Of a stretch of 64,000 nt of DNA, positions 29,041-43,331 are shown one piece after another. Position 1 is the first letter of the stretch, and every line of letters begins with the position of its first letter. Source of the stretch: a phage. Below the pieces are notes generated by a model. It made no database searches and was not told the DNA's origin. It was given only the letters and a program-made list of their open reading frames with translations. The stretch lies in the sequence record PZ386972.1. One strand, written 5' to 3'. The translations under genes and the position numbers were made by a program.

Positions 29041-29256
29041 ATGTTCTCTAAGAAACCACGTTCTGTTACTGAAATCGTTGCTTCCTTTACCACTATCACT
29101 GATGAGCTTCAAGCTCGTATTGAGGCTGATCAAAAAATTGCTGCGGATATTCAGAAACAGCAGGAAGAACTCGCTTTAAAGTTGGCTGAAACCAACAAGA
29201 GTGAAAAATCTGCCCAAACTATTATGGAAAATATCCTTAAACTGCTGGGCAAGTGA
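29041..29256 (+). CDS. hypothetical protein (71 aa)
   Basis: ORF track. Confidence 0.45.
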   Translation: MFSKKPRSVTEIVASFTTITDELQARIEADQKIAADIQKQQEELALKLAETNKSEKSAQTIMENILKLLGK

Positions 29257-29264
29257 TTTAAATC

Positions 29265-29288
29265 AGGGGGCGAAAGCCCCTCTTATTT
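29265..29288 (+). terminator. rho-independent terminator
   Basis: Hairpin GGGGGCGAAAGCCCC followed by TCTTATTT. Confidence 0.5.
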
Positions 29289-29297
29289 GGAGAAACT

Positions 29298-29534
29298 ATG
29301 CGTAATTTTGTAGCAAAGAATGATTTTAACCGTGCTAGCACCCATAAGTCAGCTAGGGATTATACACGACTTTCTAGTCATGAGGTAATGGATGCCTGTT
29401 ATGAAGAGCTGGAAGGTAGCTGGAATGAATGGCCCGACTTCTCTATGGAAGAGAACTGGGATGTCAGTGAGGATATGCTTCCTGGTTTTAAAGACCCCAA
29501 GAAGTGGGAGTCTATTAAAGAGACAGCTCTTTAA
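29298..29534 (+). CDS. hypothetical acidic protein (78 aa)
   Basis: ORF track. Confidence 0.45.
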   Translation: MRNFVAKNDFNRASTHKSARDYTRLSSHEVMDACYEELEGSWNEWPDFSMEENWDVSEDMLPGFKDPKKWESIKETAL

Positions 29535-29562
29535 TAGTTTTCTACACAATAAAGGATAGATT

Positions 29563-30264
29563 ATGAAAGTAAAACCATTTGGTATGCTAGATATTGAATC
29601 TCTAGGAACTCCAGGAGATTGTGGTACTACTCATATCGCAATGCCTTCTTTCGCTTTTGTGGCTATGCATGGGATTGATAAAGACCCTGACTTAGTATTT
29701 GTTACTTTGGATGTGCAGGATCAGCTTAATTCTGGTGCCAAAGTTACAGCATCTACTCTAGCATTCTGGATGGATCAAGCTAAAAATAGCCCCTCTGCTA
29801 TTCACATAATGGAAGCTATGAAGGAACGTAATCCAAAACTGATTGCCTTCCAAAATGGTAAACATCATTGCACTAATAAATTAGGCTCAAACTATGCTGC
29901 CTTCTCTATGGCGCAAAATATTATGGAGTTGGCTCTAGGCGAAAATGCTTTGTATTATGGCAATGGCCCAGAGTTTGATATGACTATCTACTCTGCAAAC
30001 ACGTTCCATGCTGGAACCAATGAAGAGGTAGTTCCGTGGAAATTCTGGAATTTAGGCAATGTTCGATCTCTTCGTAATCTCTGGATGCAAGCTGGTTATA
30101 GTTACAAAGATCTAGAGGCTGAAGGTATTAGCTGGGCAAAAGCTAAAATGGAAAAGATGGACACCATTCGTTATGGGATCTATCCGGTTAAGCACGACCC
30201 AGCATTCGATGCCCTAGTTGAGGGCTATTGTGTTGCAGCTATGATCGAAAAAATGAAAATTTGA
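29563..30264 (+). CDS. DEDDh-type 3'-5' exonuclease-like protein
   Basis: 233 aa; N-terminal LDIESLG (Exo I-like D-x-E) and C-terminal HDPAFDAL (H-x4-D). Confidence 0.4.
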   Translation: MKVKPFGMLDIESLGTPGDCGTTHIAMPSFAFVAMHGIDKDPDLVFVTLDVQDQLNSGAKVTASTLAFWMDQAKNSPSAIHIMEAMKERNPKLIAFQNGKHHCTNKLGSNYAAFSMAQNIMELALGENALYYGNGPEFDMTIYSANTFHAGTNEEVVPWKFWNLGNVRSLRNLWMQAGYSYKDLEAEGISWAKAKMEKMDTIRYGIYPVKHDPAFDALVEGYCVAAMIEKMKI

Positions 30265-30265
30265 T

Positions 30266-30294
30266 TTGCTTCCGGCTCCAAAATTCTGTATAAT
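30266..30294 (+). promoter_or_regulatory. early promoter
   Basis: TTGCTT 30266-30271, TATAAT 30289-30294. Confidence 0.6.
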
Positions 30295-30334
30295 ATATTC
30301 ATAAATTTGAGAAAACAATAAAAGGAAAACAAAT

Positions 30335-30517
30335 ATGCCAGTATCTAAAAATGTTCGTAAAAATGGTAAGAAAGCTACTCGTAATCTTGGTATCCGTCGT
30401 ATGGCTGAACGTCAATCAGGTATCCAGAAAATCTTTGATCTGCTAAATCGTGCTAATCCTAAAATTGATAACAGTAACGATACTGTTCTGCGCACTCTGC
30501 TGGCAATTGGTCTGTAA
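30335..30517 (+). CDS. hypothetical small basic protein (60 aa)
   Basis: ORF track. Confidence 0.45.
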   Translation: MPVSKNVRKNGKKATRNLGIRRMAERQSGIQKIFDLLNRANPKIDNSNDTVLRTLLAIGL

Positions 30518-30570
30518 TAGACCAAGTTTAAACAAATTCAAATCTCAAACTTCATATAAGGAAGCAAATA

Positions 30571-31209
30571 ATGACTACTCGTATTTCTAAAACTCGTGCT
30601 CTGGCAACCATCAAATCTCTGGAAGCTAAAATCCGTAAAGCTACTGAACAACAGCTCCTGATCGCTGTTGGTGAAGGTAAGGATAAAAATAAGGTTGTAG
30701 TTGGCGCTGCAATCGAAGTAGACGATCTATCTGCTCGTATTAAGGCAGATTTCCAATCTCTCCTAGATATGATGTCCCAGCGTGATCGTATAAAAGCTGC
30801 TCTGATTAAGAGCAATGCGGAAACAGTAGTTGAGATTGGTTCTCGTAAGATGACTGTTGCGGAAGCAATTGAAGCTAAGCGTTCTATGGAACTTAAAGCT
30901 CAACTGCTGGCTAACATGCGTAAACAGTTCCATGCCGCTACGGTTAAGTTTAATACGCAGAAAGCACAGTTTGATGCTAAATATGAGCGTCTGCAGGATA
31001 GCATGGCTACCCGCGATAAGAAAACTTCCGAAGATGAAGTTAAAATGCAGCTCAACCTGCTGGAACTCAAGAATACTCCATTCTTGATTGATCCGCTGGA
31101 ACTGGAAAAGCTGATTAAGCAGCATGACGAGGAATATCAGGACTTTGCAACAAATGTTGACTTTGTTCTGTCCGAGTCTAACGCCTCTACCTTCATTGAA
31201 GTAGAGTAA
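30571..31209 (+). CDS. hypothetical coiled-coil protein (212 aa)
   Basis: ORF track. Confidence 0.5.
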   Translation: MTTRISKTRALATIKSLEAKIRKATEQQLLIAVGEGKDKNKVVVGAAIEVDDLSARIKADFQSLLDMMSQRDRIKAALIKSNAETVVEIGSRKMTVAEAIEAKRSMELKAQLLANMRKQFHAATVKFNTQKAQFDAKYERLQDSMATRDKKTSEDEVKMQLNLLELKNTPFLIDPLELEKLIKQHDEEYQDFATNVDFVLSESNASTFIEVE

Positions 31210-31592
31210 TAATTTAAAAGCTAGTAAATCGGTAGACGAAAGCCCAAGCATCTTACCTCGCAGCAGCGGTTGAAATACGAGGTTAAATAAGACCGCTGAC
31301 CATACTATAAAGTATAATCTATTGGAGATTATGTTTATTACACCAGCCTTTTAAGCTGACACGTAAGAACAAAGCGTCGTTGATATTACCGACACAACTT
31401 CAAAGATCAACATTTAAGTATGAAAGCTGAAAAGTTTAAAGAACTCAAACTTCTAAACTTCTAAAGCTAAAAGATGCAAAGTATTCGTTGATGATTCAAA
31501 CCCTAGATCAAAGGTACATGGCTTATAAGATATGGCCTGTGGCGCCTCTAGGCTGTTTATCGGTTTACTAGTTTCACAATTTAAAAATGTAT

Positions 31593-31621
31593 TTGCTAAT
31601 TTACTAAGTTATTTGTATAAT
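31593..31621 (+). promoter_or_regulatory. early promoter
   Basis: TTGCTA 31593-31598, TATAAT 31616-31621. Confidence 0.6.
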
Positions 31622-31651
31622 ATATTTTTAAATTGATGAAACGAGGCTATT

Positions 31652-31969
31652 ATGACTTTTCATATTTTGATTGATGATGTGCGTAATCTTCACGGAATGG
31701 ACATTATCATTCGAACCCCAGAAGCCGCTGTAGAGTTTCTGAATAAAACTGATACCACAGGCCACTTCGTTTATATGGATAATGACTTGGCTGTAGATGG
31801 TATGGAAGGTTATCAAATTCTTCGTTTACTATTAGAATTTGGGCAGAGACCAAAGAAAGTGGTACTAGTAACCTCGAACCCAGTAGCTAAGCAAAATATG
31901 CGTAATGATTTGCTTGACTTAGGGTATAAAGAAAATCCCAATCGTGTTGAATATGATTGGCAGGAGTAA
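31652..31969 (+). CDS. hypothetical protein (105 aa)
   Basis: ORF track. Confidence 0.5.
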   Translation: MTFHILIDDVRNLHGMDIIIRTPEAAVEFLNKTDTTGHFVYMDNDLAVDGMEGYQILRLLLEFGQRPKKVVLVTSNPVAKQNMRNDLLDLGYKENPNRVEYDWQE

Positions 31970-32424
31970 AAAGAATGAAGGCAGCTTTGCTTTTAGTAGC
32001 TGCCCTTACCTTCAGCTTTAGTAGTCAGGCATCGCACGATGCAAAAGAAATAGATTGCATTGCTAAAAATATCTATTTCGAGAGTCGTGGTGAGGGCATA
32101 AAGGGAATGACGGCGATAGCACATGTTACTAAAAACCGTGTAAACTCCGGTAAATTCCCAGATTCCTACTGTAAAGTAGTATATCAGTCTAACCAGTTCT
32201 CTTGGGTATCTAAGAGACCAAAAGTTGATAAAACTGATGAGGCTTGGCAAACCGCTAAGAATTTAGCTAGAGTGATATACTACGTTGATTTACCACAAGA
32301 TCCTACACATGGAGCACTATACTTCCATAGTGGTAAAGATAAACCTTACTGGACAAAGAAGTTTAAGAAAACAACTAAGATTAAGGGACATACGTTTTAT
32401 AAACCTGTTGTCACTAAAACTTAA
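31957..32424 (+). CDS. secreted SleB-like cell wall hydrolase (Hydrolase_2 family)
   Basis: 155 aa; signal peptide MKAALLLVAALTFSFSSQA; NIYFESRGE...AHVTKNRV...QSNQFSW matches the SleB signature. Confidence 0.6.
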   Translation: MAGVKRMKAALLLVAALTFSFSSQASHDAKEIDCIAKNIYFESRGEGIKGMTAIAHVTKNRVNSGKFPDSYCKVVYQSNQFSWVSKRPKVDKTDEAWQTAKNLARVIYYVDLPQDPTHGALYFHSGKDKPYWTKKFKKTTKIKGHTFYKPVVTKT

Positions 32425-32433
32425 AAATTTACT

Positions 32434-32461
32434 TGCTTAAATACTTAAATTTCTGTATAAT
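32434..32461 (+). promoter_or_regulatory. early promoter
   Basis: TTGCTT 32434-32439, TATAAT 32456-32461. Confidence 0.55.
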
Positions 32462-33134: not shown

Positions 33135-33357
33135 ATATTCATAAATTAGGGAACAGCGAGCCGATTACGCTGAGTGCAGAATCCCAACCGGAGCGCATTG
33201 AATAGAGTCGGTGGGTTAGTTGTAAAACTAGTACACAGGGGGCGGCAATCCCGGTTAGTGGCTAGAACGTGTAAAATGAGGCGTCTGAAACCTCTCCCCT
33301 AAACTCTTCTCTGATTTATAAATAGTGGGGTGTGGAAATCACTTATGTAGTAACACT

Positions 33358-33429
33358 GCCGTCCTAGTATAATTGGTATTATCAAGCCGTAACTGGTGGA
33401 AGATGTAGGTTCGAATCCTACGGTCGGTA
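33358..33429 (+). ncRNA. tRNA-like element with canonical T-arm but no anticodon arm found by hand
   Basis: T-arm GTAGGTTCGAATCCTAC at 33405-33421; 5' segment GCCGTCC pairs to 3' GGTCGGT with one mismatch. Confidence 0.3.
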
Positions 33430-33931
33430 AGAACTGGATAACTGATGCTTTTAACGTAAAAGCTTCCTAGGTTAGTTGCGCACTGCCTAAACCACGCGGT
33501 AGTTGGTTCCAGACTAACCAACCAGTCTGCTGAATAGTTTTATTACGATTTAACTATGTCCAGGCTAAAGAAGAACTTTAGAAGGTATTCTAGGATAGTG
33601 AAGTTCTTTCTCCATATCGGAGTAGTTTTTCAAGCTATCCACAAAGTGGGAAATGCTGACATGAGAGATGTCACTAATGGTGCACAATAGCACAGGTAAT
33701 TCGCGATAACTCCTGTTGAGTAGCAGCAAAAGGTGGGAAGTCATGACCCCAAGCCTAACCGAGTCCTCAATATACCGCAGGACATAACCACTAAGTCACC
33801 CTGACTTAAACTGGAAAATAATAGACGTTACTGTATTTTGTCTTGAAATACTTAATGAGTGAGACTTATGACTCTCCCGGTATCGTCTGTATTTTTAAGA
33901 GTTTTTACGAGAGTTCTTAAAAATACTTAAA

Positions 33932-36302: not shown

Positions 36303-36379
36303 GGGGGTGTAATCGAATTGGCATAGGTACTGGACTTAAAATTCAGGTTTTGTGGGTTCGAATCCCACCACCCCTACCA
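36303..36379 (+). tRNA. tRNA, anticodon uncertain (hand fold gives UAA)
   Basis: Acceptor GGGGGTG/CACCCCT; T-arm GTGGGTTCGAATCCCAC; CCA; D-arm not resolved. Confidence 0.45.
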
Positions 36380-38946: not shown

Positions 38947-39029
38947 GGGTCGTTAGCCAAGCGGTTTGGCGGTGGACTGTTAATCCATGTCGAAAGACAA
39001 CGTAGGTTCGAATCCTACACGGCCCGCCA
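38947..39029 (+). tRNA. tRNA with GUU anticodon (Asn-like) and an atypical 13-nt variable stem-loop
   Basis: Acceptor GGGTCGT/ACGGCCC; anticodon stem GTGGA/TCCAT with loop CTGTTAA; variable GTCGAAAGACAAC; CCA. Confidence 0.45.
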
Positions 39030-39131
39030 AATTCTGTGTAGAGTTAAGTAAACCGGTAGCCAACCAGCTATCATTGCTGACATCGAATTCAGCCACAGAT
39101 ACCATTTTCATTAATAACTGAGGAAACAAGC

Positions 39132-40038: not shown

Positions 40039-40277
40039 CAGTGCAGAACACGGAGCTAGCAATTCGGAAGTGCTGACTCATGATAGGCTGCCTATGTACT
40101 TGCGAAGCGGTCGTGTCCAAGACTCGGACTCTTGCACTGAAAACAATCAAACATTCTAGCGTGGTTGATGGGGAAACCAGCTTGGCTAGGGCAGAAGCTC
40201 GTTCGATTCGAGTGAAAGAATGGTTCTCGTAAGTCCGCACAAGTGATAACAGGTTCGAGTCCTGTCTAGAATGACAC
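40039..40277 (+). ncRNA. composite structured RNA region with closing stems and two T-arm-like hairpins, unresolved
   Basis: CAGTGCAG (40039-46) pairs CTGCACTG (40132-39); ATTCTAG (40153-59) pairs CTAGAAT (40267-73); T-arm-like hairpins at 40197-40213 and 40250-40266. Confidence 0.3.
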
Positions 40278-40422
40278 TATAAAGTTTACTTATTATGTAG
40301 GTTCCGATAGATCGGCGGGTCTATTCTGGCATTTAAGAGAGGTCTCGCAAACTTCTTTGTCAGCCGTGGGGTTGATAGCCTCCAGGTGGCCTACACAATA
40401 AGTAAATTTATTAAAAATTCAT

Positions 40423-40956: not shown

Positions 40957-41194
40957 ATTTATATAAATTGATGAGGATTTCTCCTCATCATAGTTCACTA
41001 AGGTATTAGCTCGACCTAGGACTGGCTGCCAAAAAGCACGATCCCTACGATTCGGGAGAAGTTCTAGATTAGTCCACTAGATTCAGCGGCAACTGAATAG
41101 TGTATCGGGTTTGCGAGATGACGCGGTTCCTTCCGCTCGAAGCGAAGGTGCTGTAGTTACGCCGAGCTAATAGCCTTAGTAAACTAAAGAATTT

Positions 41195-41278: not shown

Positions 41279-41355
41279 GCGTGATTGATGGAATTGGCAT
41301 ACATACCGTCCTTAGAAGTCGGGTTTTGAGGGTTCGAATCCCTTGTCACGCACCA
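41279..41355 (+). tRNA. tRNA, anticodon uncertain (hand fold gives UAG)
   Basis: Acceptor GCGTGAT/GTCACGC; D-arm ATG/CAT; T-arm GAGGGTTCGAATCCCTT; CCA; anticodon stem has a U-U mismatch. Confidence 0.4.
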
Positions 41356-41440
41356 AATTTGATGGTCAGAGTAAATTAAACCTACTATCTCGGTTGAGCT
41401 GTTTTAATGGGTTCGAATCCCAGCGAGGCGTAACTGCCTG
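41356..41440 (+). ncRNA. orphan T-arm-like hairpin plus adjacent hairpin; possible tRNA remnant or small RNA
   Basis: TGGGTTCGAATCCCA at 41408-41422 and AGGCGTAACTGCCT at 41427-41440; no acceptor partner found. Confidence 0.25.
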
Positions 41441-41467: not shown

Positions 41468-41558
41468 GGAAGAGCAAATCGAATTGGCGACGAAAACCGC
41501 TTGGAAAGTGGCTGACTGGTAAAACGGCTTGAGAGTTCAAATCTCTCCTCTTCCGCCA
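41468..41558 (+). tRNA. tRNA-Ser (anticodon GGA), long variable arm
   Basis: Acceptor GGAAGAG/CTCTTCC; anticodon loop TTGGAAA; T-arm GAGAGTTCAAATCTCTC; CCA; 91 nt. Confidence 0.55.
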
Positions 41559-41570
41559 AACAATTTATAT

Positions 41571-41665
41571 GGTAGGTCAATCCAATGGCTGGCGCTGGAC
41601 TCCGACTTGAAATCGGTTGATCGTAGTGATACGGTGTAAGGGTTCGATCCCCTTACCTACCTCCA
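41571..41665 (+). tRNA. tRNA-Ser (anticodon UGA), long variable arm
   Basis: Acceptor GGTAGGT/ACCTACC; anticodon loop CTTGAAA; variable stem CGTA/TACG; T-arm AAGGGTTCGATCCCCTT; CCA; 95 nt. Confidence 0.55.
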
Positions 41666-41670
41666 AGTCT

Positions 41671-41802
41671 TGAAGTATGCCGGAATCGGTAGACGGGGCT
41701 GCCTAAAAGGTTTATAGGGAACATCCACTCCCTACAACATACCTCATAAAGCGGCTGAGATAAATGGTCTATCTCGTGAAGGTTCAAGTCCTTCTGCTTC
41801 TT
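41671..41802 (+). ncRNA. structured region with terminal T-arm (GAAGGTTCAAGTCCTTC) and internal hairpins, unresolved
   Basis: Hairpins TAGGGA...TCCCTA (41714-41734) and GAGATA...TATCTC (41757-41775); T-arm 41778-41794; no CCA. Confidence 0.25.
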
Positions 41803-42031
41803 GATACATCTATGGCTCAAAGTGTAACGGTGCTATTTGATGCTCTTAGTAAGACTTTCCCGACATGCGTTCGGGAGTAAGCTGCTAAGGCTAGAATAGA
41901 AGAGTTTCTGAGAGCCGCCACAATTGAAAATTCGTACTCGTCTTGAGCTGCGTGCAATAGGAGATAACTTGATTAGTATTCTAGAACATGCTAATTGAGG
42001 ATGGTTTCGCTAACCCTGCGAGTTTTCAATT

Positions 42032-42108
42032 GTGGCTATATCATAATTGGTTAATGATCCTGATTGTGAATCAGGCCTATGTGGATTCGAATTCCACTAG
42101 CCACCCCA
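42032..42108 (+). tRNA. tRNA-His (anticodon GUG)
   Basis: Acceptor GTGGCTA/TAGCCAC; D-arm TCAT/ATGA; anticodon stem CCTGA/TCAGG with loop TTGTGAA; T-arm GTGGATTCGAATTCCAC; CCA. Confidence 0.65.
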
Positions 42109-43244: not shown

Positions 43245-43331
43245 GCTGGGTTGGCAGAATGGTTGAATGCACCTGATTTGTAATCAGGAGGAGTAATCCC
43301 GTTGCAGGTTCGAATCCTGTGCCCAGCACCA
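43245..43331 (+). tRNA. tRNA with UGU anticodon (Thr-like) and an atypical 15-nt variable region
   Basis: Acceptor GCTGGGT/GCCCAGC; anticodon stem CCTGA/TCAGG with loop TTTGTAA; T-arm GCAGGTTCGAATCCTGT; CCA. Confidence 0.5.

What the first reader, a model, noticed from the sequence alone, without database searches (positions are those of the whole stretch)
41671..41802. Orphan T-arm with internal 6-bp hairpins and no acceptor partner
A good T-arm (GAAGGTTCAAGTCCTTC) is preceded by hairpins TAGGGA-N8-TCCCTA and GAGATA-AATGGTC-TATCTC, but no 5' segment complements the 3' acceptor strand at tRNA distance. It could be a non-canonical tRNA, a tRNA remnant or a distinct stable RNA.
Basis: seen in the sequence. 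Interest (0 to 1): 0.4.

Follow-up and report, generated by a model that had tools for sequence, protein, structure and literature searches.

The report
Phage T5 tRNA-like stable RNA1
The "orphan T-arm" is a complete, conserved tRNA-shaped RNA: the counterpart of phage T5's long-annotated "RNA1", a tRNA-Leu derivative with a ~40-48-nt structured insert where the anticodon loop should be and no CCA end. It is real and already catalogued, and its function is still unknown.

Summary
The window is a T5-like phage (Tequintavirus). The finding lies inside its tRNA array. The T-arm and both hairpins are there, but the title claim "no acceptor partner" is wrong. Bases 41671-41677 pair with 41795-41801. 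They sit further apart than in a normal tRNA because of a 48-nt structured stretch where the 7-nt anticodon loop would be, plus a long variable arm.

The element (41669-41813) is the full-length orthologue of T5 gene rna1, annotated "tRNA-like stable RNA with unknown functions". It has the same position as in T5: tRNA-Ser(UGA), RNA1, RNAI, RNAIII, tRNA-His.

In 32 distinct homologues, 95.6% of cells in the proposed pairs form standard pairs, against 40-50% when the pairing is slid. Thirteen pairs show compensatory double changes.

The body is tRNA-Leu-like. In the T5 clade, deleting 40 nt restores a perfect Leu(UAA) loop, CUUAAAA. That loop is not conserved in other clades. Position 1-72 is U·U, position 73 is U, and no CCA is encoded, whereas all 24 real tRNAs in the array encode CCA. 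No reading frame is conserved.

It is therefore a non-decoding tRNA mimic, probably released by tRNA-processing enzymes. The insert's 8-nt apical loop ACAUCCAC is nearly invariant (31 of 32), which points to a specific partner. A T5 deletion that removes rna1 is viable.

Verdict: already known, modest interest.

The parts
41669..41813 (+). Whole RNA1 orthologue, with ends transferred from the T5 rna1 annotation (T5s03, 144 nt)
   Evidence: Full-length blastn match to T5 rna1, 84% identity. Same neighbours as in T5. Covariance model R1 scores it at 183 bits, one copy per genome. The ends are inferred from the T5 annotation and were not mapped here.
41671..41677 (+). Acceptor stem, 5' strand (UGAAGUA); position 1 is U opposite U72
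   Evidence: MFE fold. Pairs with 41795-41801. Four of seven pairs have double changes; the 1-72 position is unpaired in 29 of 32 sequences.
41680..41696 (+). D arm: 3-bp stem CCG/CGG and loop GAAUCGGUAGA (tRNA-Leu type)
   Evidence: Stem pairs are almost invariant (one G-C to G-U change) and always paired. The loop is close to that of T5 tRNA-Leu(UAG). R1's next-best hits are the phage tRNA-Leu genes.
41698..41702 (+). Anticodon stem, 5' strand (GCUGC)
   Evidence: Pairs with 41751-41755. Three of five pairs have compensatory changes; 99.4% of cells paired.
41703..41750 (+). Structured stretch where the anticodon loop would be. Internal loop CUAAA/CAUAAA; 4-bp stem 41708-11/41741-44; internal loop UUA/CAACAU; 6-bp stem 41715-20/41729-34
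   Evidence: Both stems covary: two of four and three of six pairs have double changes. The stretch is present in every homologue found. No uninterrupted version exists in the phage collection.
41721..41728 (+). Apical 8-nt loop ACAUCCAC of the insert, nearly invariant
   Evidence: Identical in 31 of 32 distinct sequences from E. coli, Salmonella, Klebsiella and Pectobacterium phages. T5 itself has ACAUCCGC. The closing G-C and A-U pairs are invariant.
41751..41755 (+). Anticodon stem, 3' strand (GCGGC)
41757..41775 (+). Long variable arm (GAGAUA-AAUGGUC-UAUCUC), as in class II tRNAs
   Evidence: 100% of cells paired; one pair shows A-U, U-A and C-G; the loop is nearly invariant.
41778..41794 (+). 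T arm (GAAGG-UUCAAGU-CCUUC)
Evidence: 100% of cells paired.
41795..41802 (+). Acceptor stem 3' strand (UGCUUCU) plus position 73 = U, followed by GAUAC rather than CCA
   Evidence: all 24 real tRNA genes in the array end in N73-CCA and this one does not. Both U's (positions 72 and 73) are invariant in alignment A2.

Best explanation
This is the orthologue of phage T5 gene rna1 ("RNA1, tRNA-like stable RNA with unknown functions"). It is a gene descended from a class II tRNA-Leu, most likely tRNA-Leu(UAA). About 40 nt were inserted into the anticodon loop, giving a 48-nt structured stretch between the strands of the anticodon stem.

The RNA keeps the acceptor, D, variable and T arms, and therefore presumably the L-shaped tRNA body (inferred). 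The anticodon arm is lengthened by two more helices and two A-rich internal loops. It ends in a nearly invariant 8-nt loop, ACAUCCAC. The 3' end has lost A73-CCA, and position 1-72 is U·U.

It is transcribed as part of the long early tRNA transcript; this rests on the T5 promoter annotation. It is presumably cut out by the host tRNA-processing enzymes (RNase P and 3' trimming) and is stable because of its tRNA-like fold. This step is inferred.

It does not decode codons and is probably not aminoacylated. The most likely mode of action is as a tRNA mimic: it binds a factor that recognises tRNA shape, with the extended arm and its invariant loop providing specificity. This last step is inference only, and I put about 0.25 on it. 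The partner is unknown. It is not needed for growth on laboratory E. coli.
For: Identity: full-length 84% match to T5 rna1. All other T5 stable RNAs map in the same order. The annotation appears in NC_005859 and AY692264. The neighbours are tRNA-Ser(UGA) upstream and RNAI, RNAIII and tRNA-His downstream.

Structure: the MFE fold is a cloverleaf. On 28 and 32 distinct sequences, 95.6% of cells are paired, against 38-50% when the pairing is slid. There are 12-13 pairs with double changes, against 1-3 slid, and 0-1 of 500 shuffles reach the observed values. RNAalifold independently predicts the same acceptor, anticodon, insert, variable and T helices, but draws the D arm differently.

tRNA-Leu origin: the model's next-best hits are T5 tRNA-Leu(UAG), 38.8 bits, and the window's tRNA-Leu(UAA), 30.8 bits. 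The D-loop and T-loop resemble tRNA-Leu. ARAGORN intron mode calls the T5 clade "tRNA-Leu(taa) i(33,40)", leaving CUUAAAA. One record, JLBYU40, annotates it as tRNA-Leu(taa), 134 nt.

Non-decoding: the inferred "anticodon" differs between clades (AAA, UAA, AAC) and U33 is not kept. There is no CCA, position 73 is U and 1-72 is U·U, while all 24 real tRNAs of the array encode N73-CCA. It falls below Rfam tRNA thresholds even at E = 10.

Functional constraint: the apical loop (31 of 32) and the variable-arm loop are nearly invariant while the stems change. There is one copy per genome in about 490 phage records from several host genera.

Dispensability: T5-123 (deletion 29191-32442) removes rna1 (30501-30644) and is viable. 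Only the Val-Lys-fMet-Pro fragment rescued PARIS sensitivity (PMC11464382).
Against: No expression, end-mapping or binding data exist for this phage. That the RNA is "stable" rests on the T5 GenBank annotation; I could not retrieve the primary papers.

The ends are uncertain. The T5-annotated 5' end lies 2 nt upstream of tRNA position 1, and the 3' end carries an 11-nt trailer after position 73. The two possible extra leader-trailer pairs never vary, so they say nothing either way.

Host CCA-adding enzyme could in principle add CCA after trimming, so lack of charging is inferred, not shown.

The homologues are closely related (77-100% identity), so part of the loop invariance could reflect short divergence time. 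Against that, stem positions did change over the same period.

No partner for the invariant loop was found. Its complement GUGGAUGU does not occur on the + strand of the window, the strand that carries the tRNA array.
Confidence: 0.85

Rival explanations
1. It is a genuine intron-containing tRNA gene. The ~40-nt insert is removed and the exons are joined to give a working tRNA: Leu(UAA) in the T5 clade, something else in the others.
For: ARAGORN with intron search calls a tRNA in every family member. In the T5 clade, removing 40 nt leaves a textbook CUUAAAA Leu(UAA) loop on a Leu-like body. T5 and L010 have no separate tRNA-Leu(UAA) in the flanks available. JLBYU40 annotates it as tRNA-Leu(taa).
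Against: The reconstructed loop is not conserved. The calls are AAA in the window clade, AAA at a different splice point in the L003 and Klebsiella clades, and AAC in Pectobacterium, and U33 is often lost. Three of the five T5-type genomes with enough flank also carry a normal tRNA-Leu(UAA). There is no CCA, position 73 is U and 1-72 is U·U, unlike all 24 real tRNAs here. At 40 nt the insert is far too short for a self-splicing group I intron, and no intron family matched in Rfam. Enterobacteria have no tRNA splicing endonuclease (established knowledge). T5 annotates the 144-nt unspliced form as the stable RNA.
Confidence: 0.05
2. It is a dead tRNA-Leu pseudogene, disrupted by an insertion and drifting, with no function of its own.
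For: It has lost the anticodon loop, A73 and CCA. It is dispensable in the laboratory. It is the most diverged of the T5 stable RNAs, 84% against 93-100%.
Against: The divergence is mostly compensatory: 13 pairs have double changes and 95.6% of cells stay paired, including both helices of the insert. The apical and variable-arm loops are nearly invariant. It is kept as a single copy in about 490 phages infecting at least four host genera.
Confidence: 0.05
3. It acts only as a processing or punctuation module. Its tRNA shape recruits RNase P and other enzymes to cut the polycistronic transcript and release or stabilise the neighbours (RNAI, RNAIII, tRNA-His), and the RNA has no role afterwards.
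For: It lies head-to-tail with other processed RNAs. In T5 no promoter or terminator is annotated between P13b and P11. No + strand terminator was found here other than T-arm look-alikes. The acceptor and T arms are well kept.
Against: A processing signal needs only the acceptor and T arms. This does not explain the conserved, covarying 48-nt extension, its invariant 8-nt loop or the invariant variable-arm loop. The neighbours have their own terminal helices.
Confidence: 0.1
4. It is a small protein-coding gene, as a few records annotate ("hypothetical protein" over this spot).
For: The window has a 55-aa ORF with a TTG start on the minus strand (41653-41820) and a 38-aa ORF on the plus strand. 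Some records place CDS features here.
Against: No frame stays open across clades. The window's open minus-strand frame has 3-4 stops in T5 and TrudiGerster, and a 1-nt indel separates the clades. The substitutions preserve helices.
Confidence: 0.01

Closest known systems
Phage T5 rna1 (locus T5s03; "RNA1, tRNA-like stable RNA with unknown functions"), annotated in NC_005859 and AY692264
   Same: Orthologue. Full-length alignment at 84% identity, the same neighbours, the same cloverleaf with an extended anticodon arm, and the same lack of CCA.
   Different: The two differ by clade-level substitutions, many of them compensatory. The 3' junction strand is UCAUAAA here and UUAAAA in T5. The apical loop is ACAUCCAC here and ACAUCCGC in T5. 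T5 also has ORF T5.063 between tRNA-Ser(UGA) and rna1, which the window lacks.
Class II tRNA-Leu, in particular tRNA-Leu(UAA)
   Same: A 3-bp D stem with a GGAAUCGGUAGA-type D loop, a long variable arm and a GGUUCAAGUCC T loop. The phage tRNA-Leu genes are the next-best hits to the RNA1 model. The T5 clade keeps UUAAAA at the junction.
   Different: 48 nt lie where the 7-nt anticodon loop should be. Position 73 is U instead of A, no CCA is encoded, and 1-72 is U·U. It does not reach Rfam tRNA thresholds.
Phage T4 species 1 and species 2 RNAs (rnaC, rnaD)
   Same: Small stable RNAs of unknown function, encoded at the end of a phage tRNA cluster. The predicted fold of rnaC has a T arm, an acceptor-like closing helix and long extra arms.
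   Different: There is no sequence or model similarity: R1 gives no hit anywhere in the T4 cluster. The predicted rnaC fold has no D arm and a different arrangement of arms. This is an analogy, not family membership.
Intron-containing pre-tRNAs: archaeal and eukaryotic bulge-helix-bulge introns, and the cyanobacterial tRNA-Leu(UAA) group I intron
   Same: A mature-looking tRNA body with extra sequence in the anticodon loop that extends the anticodon arm. The cyanobacterial case involves the same tRNA species, Leu(UAA) (established knowledge).
   Different: The insert is about 40 nt, so it cannot be a group I ribozyme. The loops flanking the 4-bp helix are 5x6 and 3x6 internal loops, not two 3-nt bulges. 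The exon junction is not conserved. The hosts have no splicing endonuclease (established knowledge).
tmRNA and bacterial or phage Y-RNA-like YrlA (non-coding RNAs with a tRNA-like domain)
   Same: Non-decoding RNAs that reuse part of the tRNA fold.
   Different: No ARAGORN tmRNA call and no Rfam tmRNA hit. tmRNA keeps CCA and is charged with alanine. In YrlA the RNA ends lie in the Ro-binding stem rather than the acceptor stem (from my own knowledge, not tested here).

Membership tests
T5 rna1 (RNA1) stable-RNA family of T5-like phages | Sequence homology over the full length of T5 rna1 | tested here: met
   144 of 144 nt aligned at 84% identity, E = 2e-40. Model R1 gives 183 bits for the window and 175 bits for T5.
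T5 rna1 (RNA1) stable-RNA family of T5-like phages | Conserved position: downstream of tRNA-Ser(UGA), immediately upstream of RNAI, RNAIII and tRNA-His | tested here: met
   The only difference is that ORF T5.063 is absent from the window.
T5 rna1 (RNA1) stable-RNA family of T5-like phages | Shared secondary structure: cloverleaf plus an extended anticodon arm | tested here: met
   95.6% of cells paired and 13 pairs with double changes, against 1-3 in the slid controls.
T5 rna1 (RNA1) stable-RNA family of T5-like phages | Accumulates as a discrete stable RNA in infected cells | not testable with these tools
   Rests on the T5 GenBank annotation. No expression data are available for this phage.
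Canonical tRNA (Rfam RF00005) | Scores above the family threshold | tested here: not met
   No tRNA hit over 41671-41802 at the gathering score or at E up to 10. Default ARAGORN finds nothing.
Canonical tRNA (Rfam RF00005) | Four-arm cloverleaf with D and T loops able to form the elbow | tested here: met
   The D-loop GG and the T-loop UUCAAGU are conserved.
Canonical tRNA (Rfam RF00005) | 7-nt anticodon loop with U33 and a conserved anticodon | tested here: not met
   48 nt lie between the strands of the anticodon stem. The loop reconstructed by removing the insert differs between clades.
Canonical tRNA (Rfam RF00005) | Acceptor end suitable for charging: paired 1-72, discriminator, and CCA encoded as in the rest of this array | tested here: not met
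   U1·U72, U73, then GAUAC. All 24 real tRNAs of the array encode N73-CCA.
Intron-containing tRNA | Cloverleaf interrupted in the anticodon loop | tested here: met
   ARAGORN -i: tRNA at 41671-41802 with a 41-nt intron at position 37.
Intron-containing tRNA | Removing the intron gives the same functional anticodon loop in all homologues | tested here: not met
   AAA, UAA or AAC, with different splice points.
Intron-containing tRNA | A recognisable splicing mechanism: a group I or II ribozyme core, or a bulge-helix-bulge motif with a host endonuclease | tested here: not met
   No intron family matched in Rfam. The insert is only about 40 nt. The loops flanking the 4-bp helix are 5x6 and 3x6 internal loops. 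That the hosts lack the endonuclease is established knowledge, not tested here.
tmRNA | tRNA-Ala-like ends plus a tag reading frame | tested here: not met
   ARAGORN reports no tmRNA in the window and there is no Rfam hit.

The most novel reading that the evidence does not exclude
RNA1 is a dedicated tRNA-Leu mimic. It binds and titrates or redirects a host factor that reads tRNA shape, for example a tRNA-targeting defence nuclease, or leucyl-tRNA synthetase, which does not need the anticodon arm (my recollection of the E. coli LeuRS literature, not checked here). In this reading the invariant ACAUCCAC loop on the lengthened arm sets the specificity. That would make it an RNA-based counter-defence or host-takeover element, carried by most T5-like phages and overlooked for decades. 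PARIS is already excluded as the target.
Probability: 0.15. Interest if true: 0.65.

Novelty: already known. Interest (0 to 1): 0.3.

Why it matters
For genome annotation, this element is skipped or mislabelled in most of the ~490 T5-like phage records sampled: no feature at all, a "hypothetical protein", or occasionally a 134-nt "tRNA-Leu". It has no Rfam family. The covariation-supported structure and model built here would allow consistent annotation.

For biology, phage tRNAs are now known to counter tRNA-cleaving defences; T5 tRNA-Lys against PARIS is one example. A conserved, non-decoding tRNA-Leu mimic sitting in the same array is therefore a reasonable candidate for a related role. That is untested, and the element is dispensable on laboratory E. 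coli.

Tried and rejected
1. Default ARAGORN and Rfam, at both gathering and E <= 10 thresholds: no call over the interval. These are false negatives caused by the insert.

2. Intron-tRNA reading: ARAGORN -i does call it, but the anticodon and splice point differ between clades. Rejected as a conserved decoder.

3. The idea that the T5-type RNA1, which keeps the UUAAAA junction, replaces a missing tRNA-Leu(UAA): rejected. L015, L017 and L028 have both.

4. Coding hypothesis: no conserved open frame.

5. Pairing partner for the apical loop: the complement GUGGAUGU does not occur on the + strand of the window, the strand that carries the tRNA array. The other four ACATCCAC copies show no hairpin context, and the one examined in detail lies inside an ORF.

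6. Homologues outside T5-like phages: none in E. coli genomes. One hit in GTDB genomes is about what chance predicts by my estimate for this pattern, and it shows no tRNA-like features. IMG/VR hits are all contigs of about 96-122 kb (one 14.5-kb fragment) that carry the same element.

7. An uninterrupted ancestor-like tRNA-Leu matching an insert-deleted RNA1: none in the phage collection. Every full-length hit is in two pieces, so it carries the insert.

8. T4 rnaC and rnaD as relatives: no model hit. They are only analogous.

9. Literature: no paper in the searchable library discusses T5 RNA1. The T4 genome review was not held.

10. Leader-trailer extension of the acceptor helix: the two extra pairs never vary, so the test is uninformative.

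Full report
**What the window is.** The 2-kb stretch around the finding is 99.7% identical to Salmonella phage SCF and 95-99% identical to many Tequintavirus genomes. ARAGORN and Rfam each find 22 tRNA genes on the + strand; together the calls span 33.3-44.3 kb. Neither tool calls anything between 41356 and 42031, although that gap contains several T-arm-like motifs.

**Checking the observation.**
- T-arm: 41778-41794
- TAGGGA-N8-TCCCTA: 41715-41734
- GAGATA-N7-TATCTC: 41757-41775

The claim that the 3' acceptor strand has no partner does not hold. The minimum-free-energy fold of 41671-41802 is a complete cloverleaf (-40.6 kcal/mol, z = -2.5). In it, 41672-41677 pair with 41795-41800, and U41671 lies opposite U41801. 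A D arm occupies 41680-41696. The anticodon stem is 41698-41702 with 41751-41755. The two acceptor strands are far apart because 48 nt (41703-41750) lie between the strands of the anticodon stem, where a tRNA has a 7-nt loop.

**Identity.** The RefSeq record of phage T5 annotates, between tRNA-Ser(UGA) and tRNA-His, an ORF (T5.063) and three misc_RNA genes:
- rna1, "tRNA-like stable RNA with unknown functions", 144 nt
- rnaI, 107 nt
- rnaIII, 106 nt

The st0 record AY692264 carries the same rna1 feature. T5 rna1 aligns over its full length to window 41669-41813 at 84% identity. RNAI maps to 41814-41920, RNAIII to 41925-42030, and tRNA-His starts at 42032. T5.063 is absent from the window. The finding is therefore the orthologue of a catalogued T5 gene. 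Most other records sampled annotate nothing here. A few place a "hypothetical protein" over it, and one (JLBYU40) labels it a 134-nt tRNA-Leu(taa).

**Structure test.** About 490 phage records contain the element, from phages of E. coli, Salmonella, Klebsiella, Pectobacterium, Citrobacter, Yersinia and others. I collected homologues from GenBank and IMG/VR, aligned 28 of them and wrote the seven-helix structure onto the alignment.
- 95.6% of cells form standard pairs, against 40-50% when the 3' partners are slid by 1-3 columns.
- 12 pairs have changes on both sides, against 1-3 when slid.
- No shuffle out of 500 reaches the observed pairing percentage or covariation score.
- A model-based alignment of 33 matches (32 distinct) gives the same result, with 13 double-change pairs.
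- Compensatory changes occur in the acceptor stem (4 pairs), the anticodon stem (3), both insert helices (2 and 3) and the variable arm (1).
- RNAalifold independently recovers the acceptor, anticodon, insert, variable and T helices, though it draws the D arm differently.

These sequences are fairly closely related, so shuffle counts are not probabilities. The slid controls and the spread of double changes over five helices are the stronger argument.

**What is invariant.** While the stems change, several parts are identical or nearly so:
- the D loop
- the T loop
- the variable-arm loop (AAAUGGUC)
- the 8-nt apical loop of the insert, ACAUCCAC (31 of 32; T5 has ACAUCCGC)

The internal loops are A-rich, with a few fixed adenines.

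**Origin.** The covariance model finds one strong copy per genome (130-185 bits). Its next-best hits are phage tRNA-Leu genes: T5 tRNA-Leu(UAG) at 38.8 bits and the window's tRNA-Leu(UAA) at 30.8 bits.

ARAGORN with intron search calls every family member a tRNA, but the calls disagree:
- Window clade: "Phe(aaa), 41-nt intron at 37".
- T5/Epseptimavirus clade: "Leu(taa), 40-nt intron at 33".
- L003 and Klebsiella clades: "Phe(aaa)" with other splice points.
- Pectobacterium: "Val(aac)".

In the T5 clade, removing the 40 nt leaves CUUAAAA, a canonical Leu(UAA) anticodon loop. The simplest reading is that about 40 nt were inserted into the anticodon loop of a class II tRNA-Leu(UAA). The old loop sequence is still visible in one clade and has drifted in the others.

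No uninterrupted counterpart exists in the phage collection: an insert-deleted query hits only the same T5-like phages, and every full-length match is in two pieces. Nothing similar is found in E. coli genomes. A motif scan of 185,579 bacterial and archaeal genomes gave one hit, about what chance predicts by my estimate, with no tRNA-like features.

**Why it is not a working tRNA.**
1. The reconstructed anticodon loop is not conserved.
2. All 24 genuine tRNA genes in the array, including both tRNA-Leu (A73-CCA), encode N73-CCA. RNA1 has U·U at 1-72 and U at 73, followed by GAUAC. These residues are invariant in the enterobacterial clades.
3. Keeping the UUAAAA junction does not track the absence of a normal tRNA-Leu(UAA). 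Three of the five T5-type genomes with enough flank have both.
4. An insert of about 40 nt cannot be a self-splicing intron, no intron family matches, and enterobacteria lack a tRNA splicing endonuclease (established knowledge).

**Why it is not a pseudogene or an ORF.** Drift would not preserve pairing through double changes or keep the loops invariant. No reading frame stays open across clades, and a 1-nt indel separates them.

**How it probably works.** The following is shown: it is a conserved, single-copy, tRNA-shaped RNA gene inside a tRNA array, with a lengthened anticodon arm ending in a nearly invariant loop and without a tRNA acceptor terminus.

From the T5 annotation: it lies in a long transcription unit with no promoter or terminator annotated between P13b and P11, and it is recorded as a stable RNA. 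In the window, the only + strand terminator-like sites in this stretch are T-arm-type hairpins.

Inferred:
- RNase P and 3' trimming release it.
- The tRNA fold makes it stable.
- It acts as a tRNA mimic whose extended arm contacts a specific partner.

I found no partner. The loop's complement does not occur on the + strand of the window, and the other ACATCCAC copies are in unrelated contexts.

T5-123 (deletion 29191-32442) removes rna1 (30501-30644) and is viable. In that study only the fragment carrying the Val, Lys, fMet and Pro tRNAs rescued PARIS sensitivity. So RNA1 is dispensable in the laboratory and is not the PARIS suppressor (PMC11464382).

**Comparison with known systems.** It is a member of the T5 rna1 family by sequence, position and structure. 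It works like a tRNA mimic but fails the membership tests for canonical tRNA: score, anticodon loop and acceptor end. It also fails those for intron-containing tRNA: conserved junction and splicing mechanism. The T4 species 1 and 2 RNAs (rnaC, rnaD) are the nearest analogues. They are stable RNAs of unknown function at the end of a phage tRNA cluster, and rnaC is predicted to have a T arm and long extra arms. They are not homologous by the model.

**Verdict.** I add four things:
- a covariation-supported structure
- the tRNA-Leu(UAA) origin
- the evidence that both functional ends of the tRNA are lost
- the invariant apical loop

Function remains unknown. Interest is modest, at 0.3.

**Limits.** I could not retrieve the primary T5 RNA papers. 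"Stable RNA" and the exact ends therefore rest on GenBank annotation. I recall that the T5 low-molecular-weight RNAs were characterised biochemically around 1980 by the Weiss and Bayev/Ksenzenko groups, but that is from memory and was not verified here.

Noticed in passing
window 41468-41558 and 41571-41665: Two class II tRNA-Ser genes, GGA and UGA anticodons, both ending in CCA, are missed by default ARAGORN and by Rfam at gathering score. They appear only as weak tRNA-Sec-model hits (19.7 and 37.6 bits). Relatives and T5 annotate them as tRNA-Ser.
   Followed up: partly
window 41814-41920 (RNAI) and 41925-42030 (RNAIII): These are the two other T5 "stable RNAs of unknown function", directly downstream. 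RNAI is closed by GGCUC/GAGCC followed by G-CCA, an acceptor-like end with an encoded CCA. RNAIII is 100% identical to T5 and is closed by a ~15-bp terminal helix (fold z = -3.8).
   Followed up: partly
window 41408-41422: A further T-arm-like motif (TGGG-TTCGAAT-CCCA) sits in the 112-nt spacer between tRNA-Leu(UAG) and tRNA-Ser(GGA). T5 has the HNH endonuclease gene hegC at this spot. It may be a tRNA fragment left by rearrangement.
   Followed up: no
window 36303-36379 and 41279-41355; relatives: Both tRNA-Leu genes of this phage are only 77 nt, with a short variable region, which is unusual for bacterial-type tRNA-Leu. T5's tRNA-Leu(UAG) is 85 nt. Relatives show 77, 81, 83, 85 or 87 nt at the same position.
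   Followed up: no
window 41666-41670 (junction) compared with T5 30651-30824: The small ORF T5.063 (174 nt), which T5, BB1 and JLBYU40 carry between tRNA-Ser(UGA) and RNA1, is absent from the window. This is an insertion/deletion polymorphism in the array.
   Followed up: partly
window 33302-33931, 39032-39104, 40152-40276, 40295-40397, 41004-41175: The other T5 stable RNAs (RNAX, RNA3, RNA2, RNAIV, RNA2H) all have 91-100% identical counterparts here. The RNAX region contains an Rfam tRNA hit at 33358-33429 (35.5 bits) that ARAGORN does not call. In T5, RNA2 folds with an 8-bp acceptor-like helix and a T arm.
   Followed up: partly
window 41703-41708 and 41745-41750; T5 clade in alignment A3: The two strands of the internal loop next to the anticodon stem (5' CUAAAA here; 3' UUAAAA in the T5 clade) both resemble the Leu(UAA) anticodon loop. 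They flank a core with inverted ends, GGU...ACC. This looks like a target-site duplication around a small inserted hairpin. No other copy of the core was found anywhere.
   Followed up: partly
window 43245-43331 and 38947-39029: tRNA-Thr(UGU) is 87 nt and tRNA-Asn(GUU) is 83 nt, longer than usual for these class I tRNAs. T5 annotates its tRNA-Thr as 75 nt.
   Followed up: no
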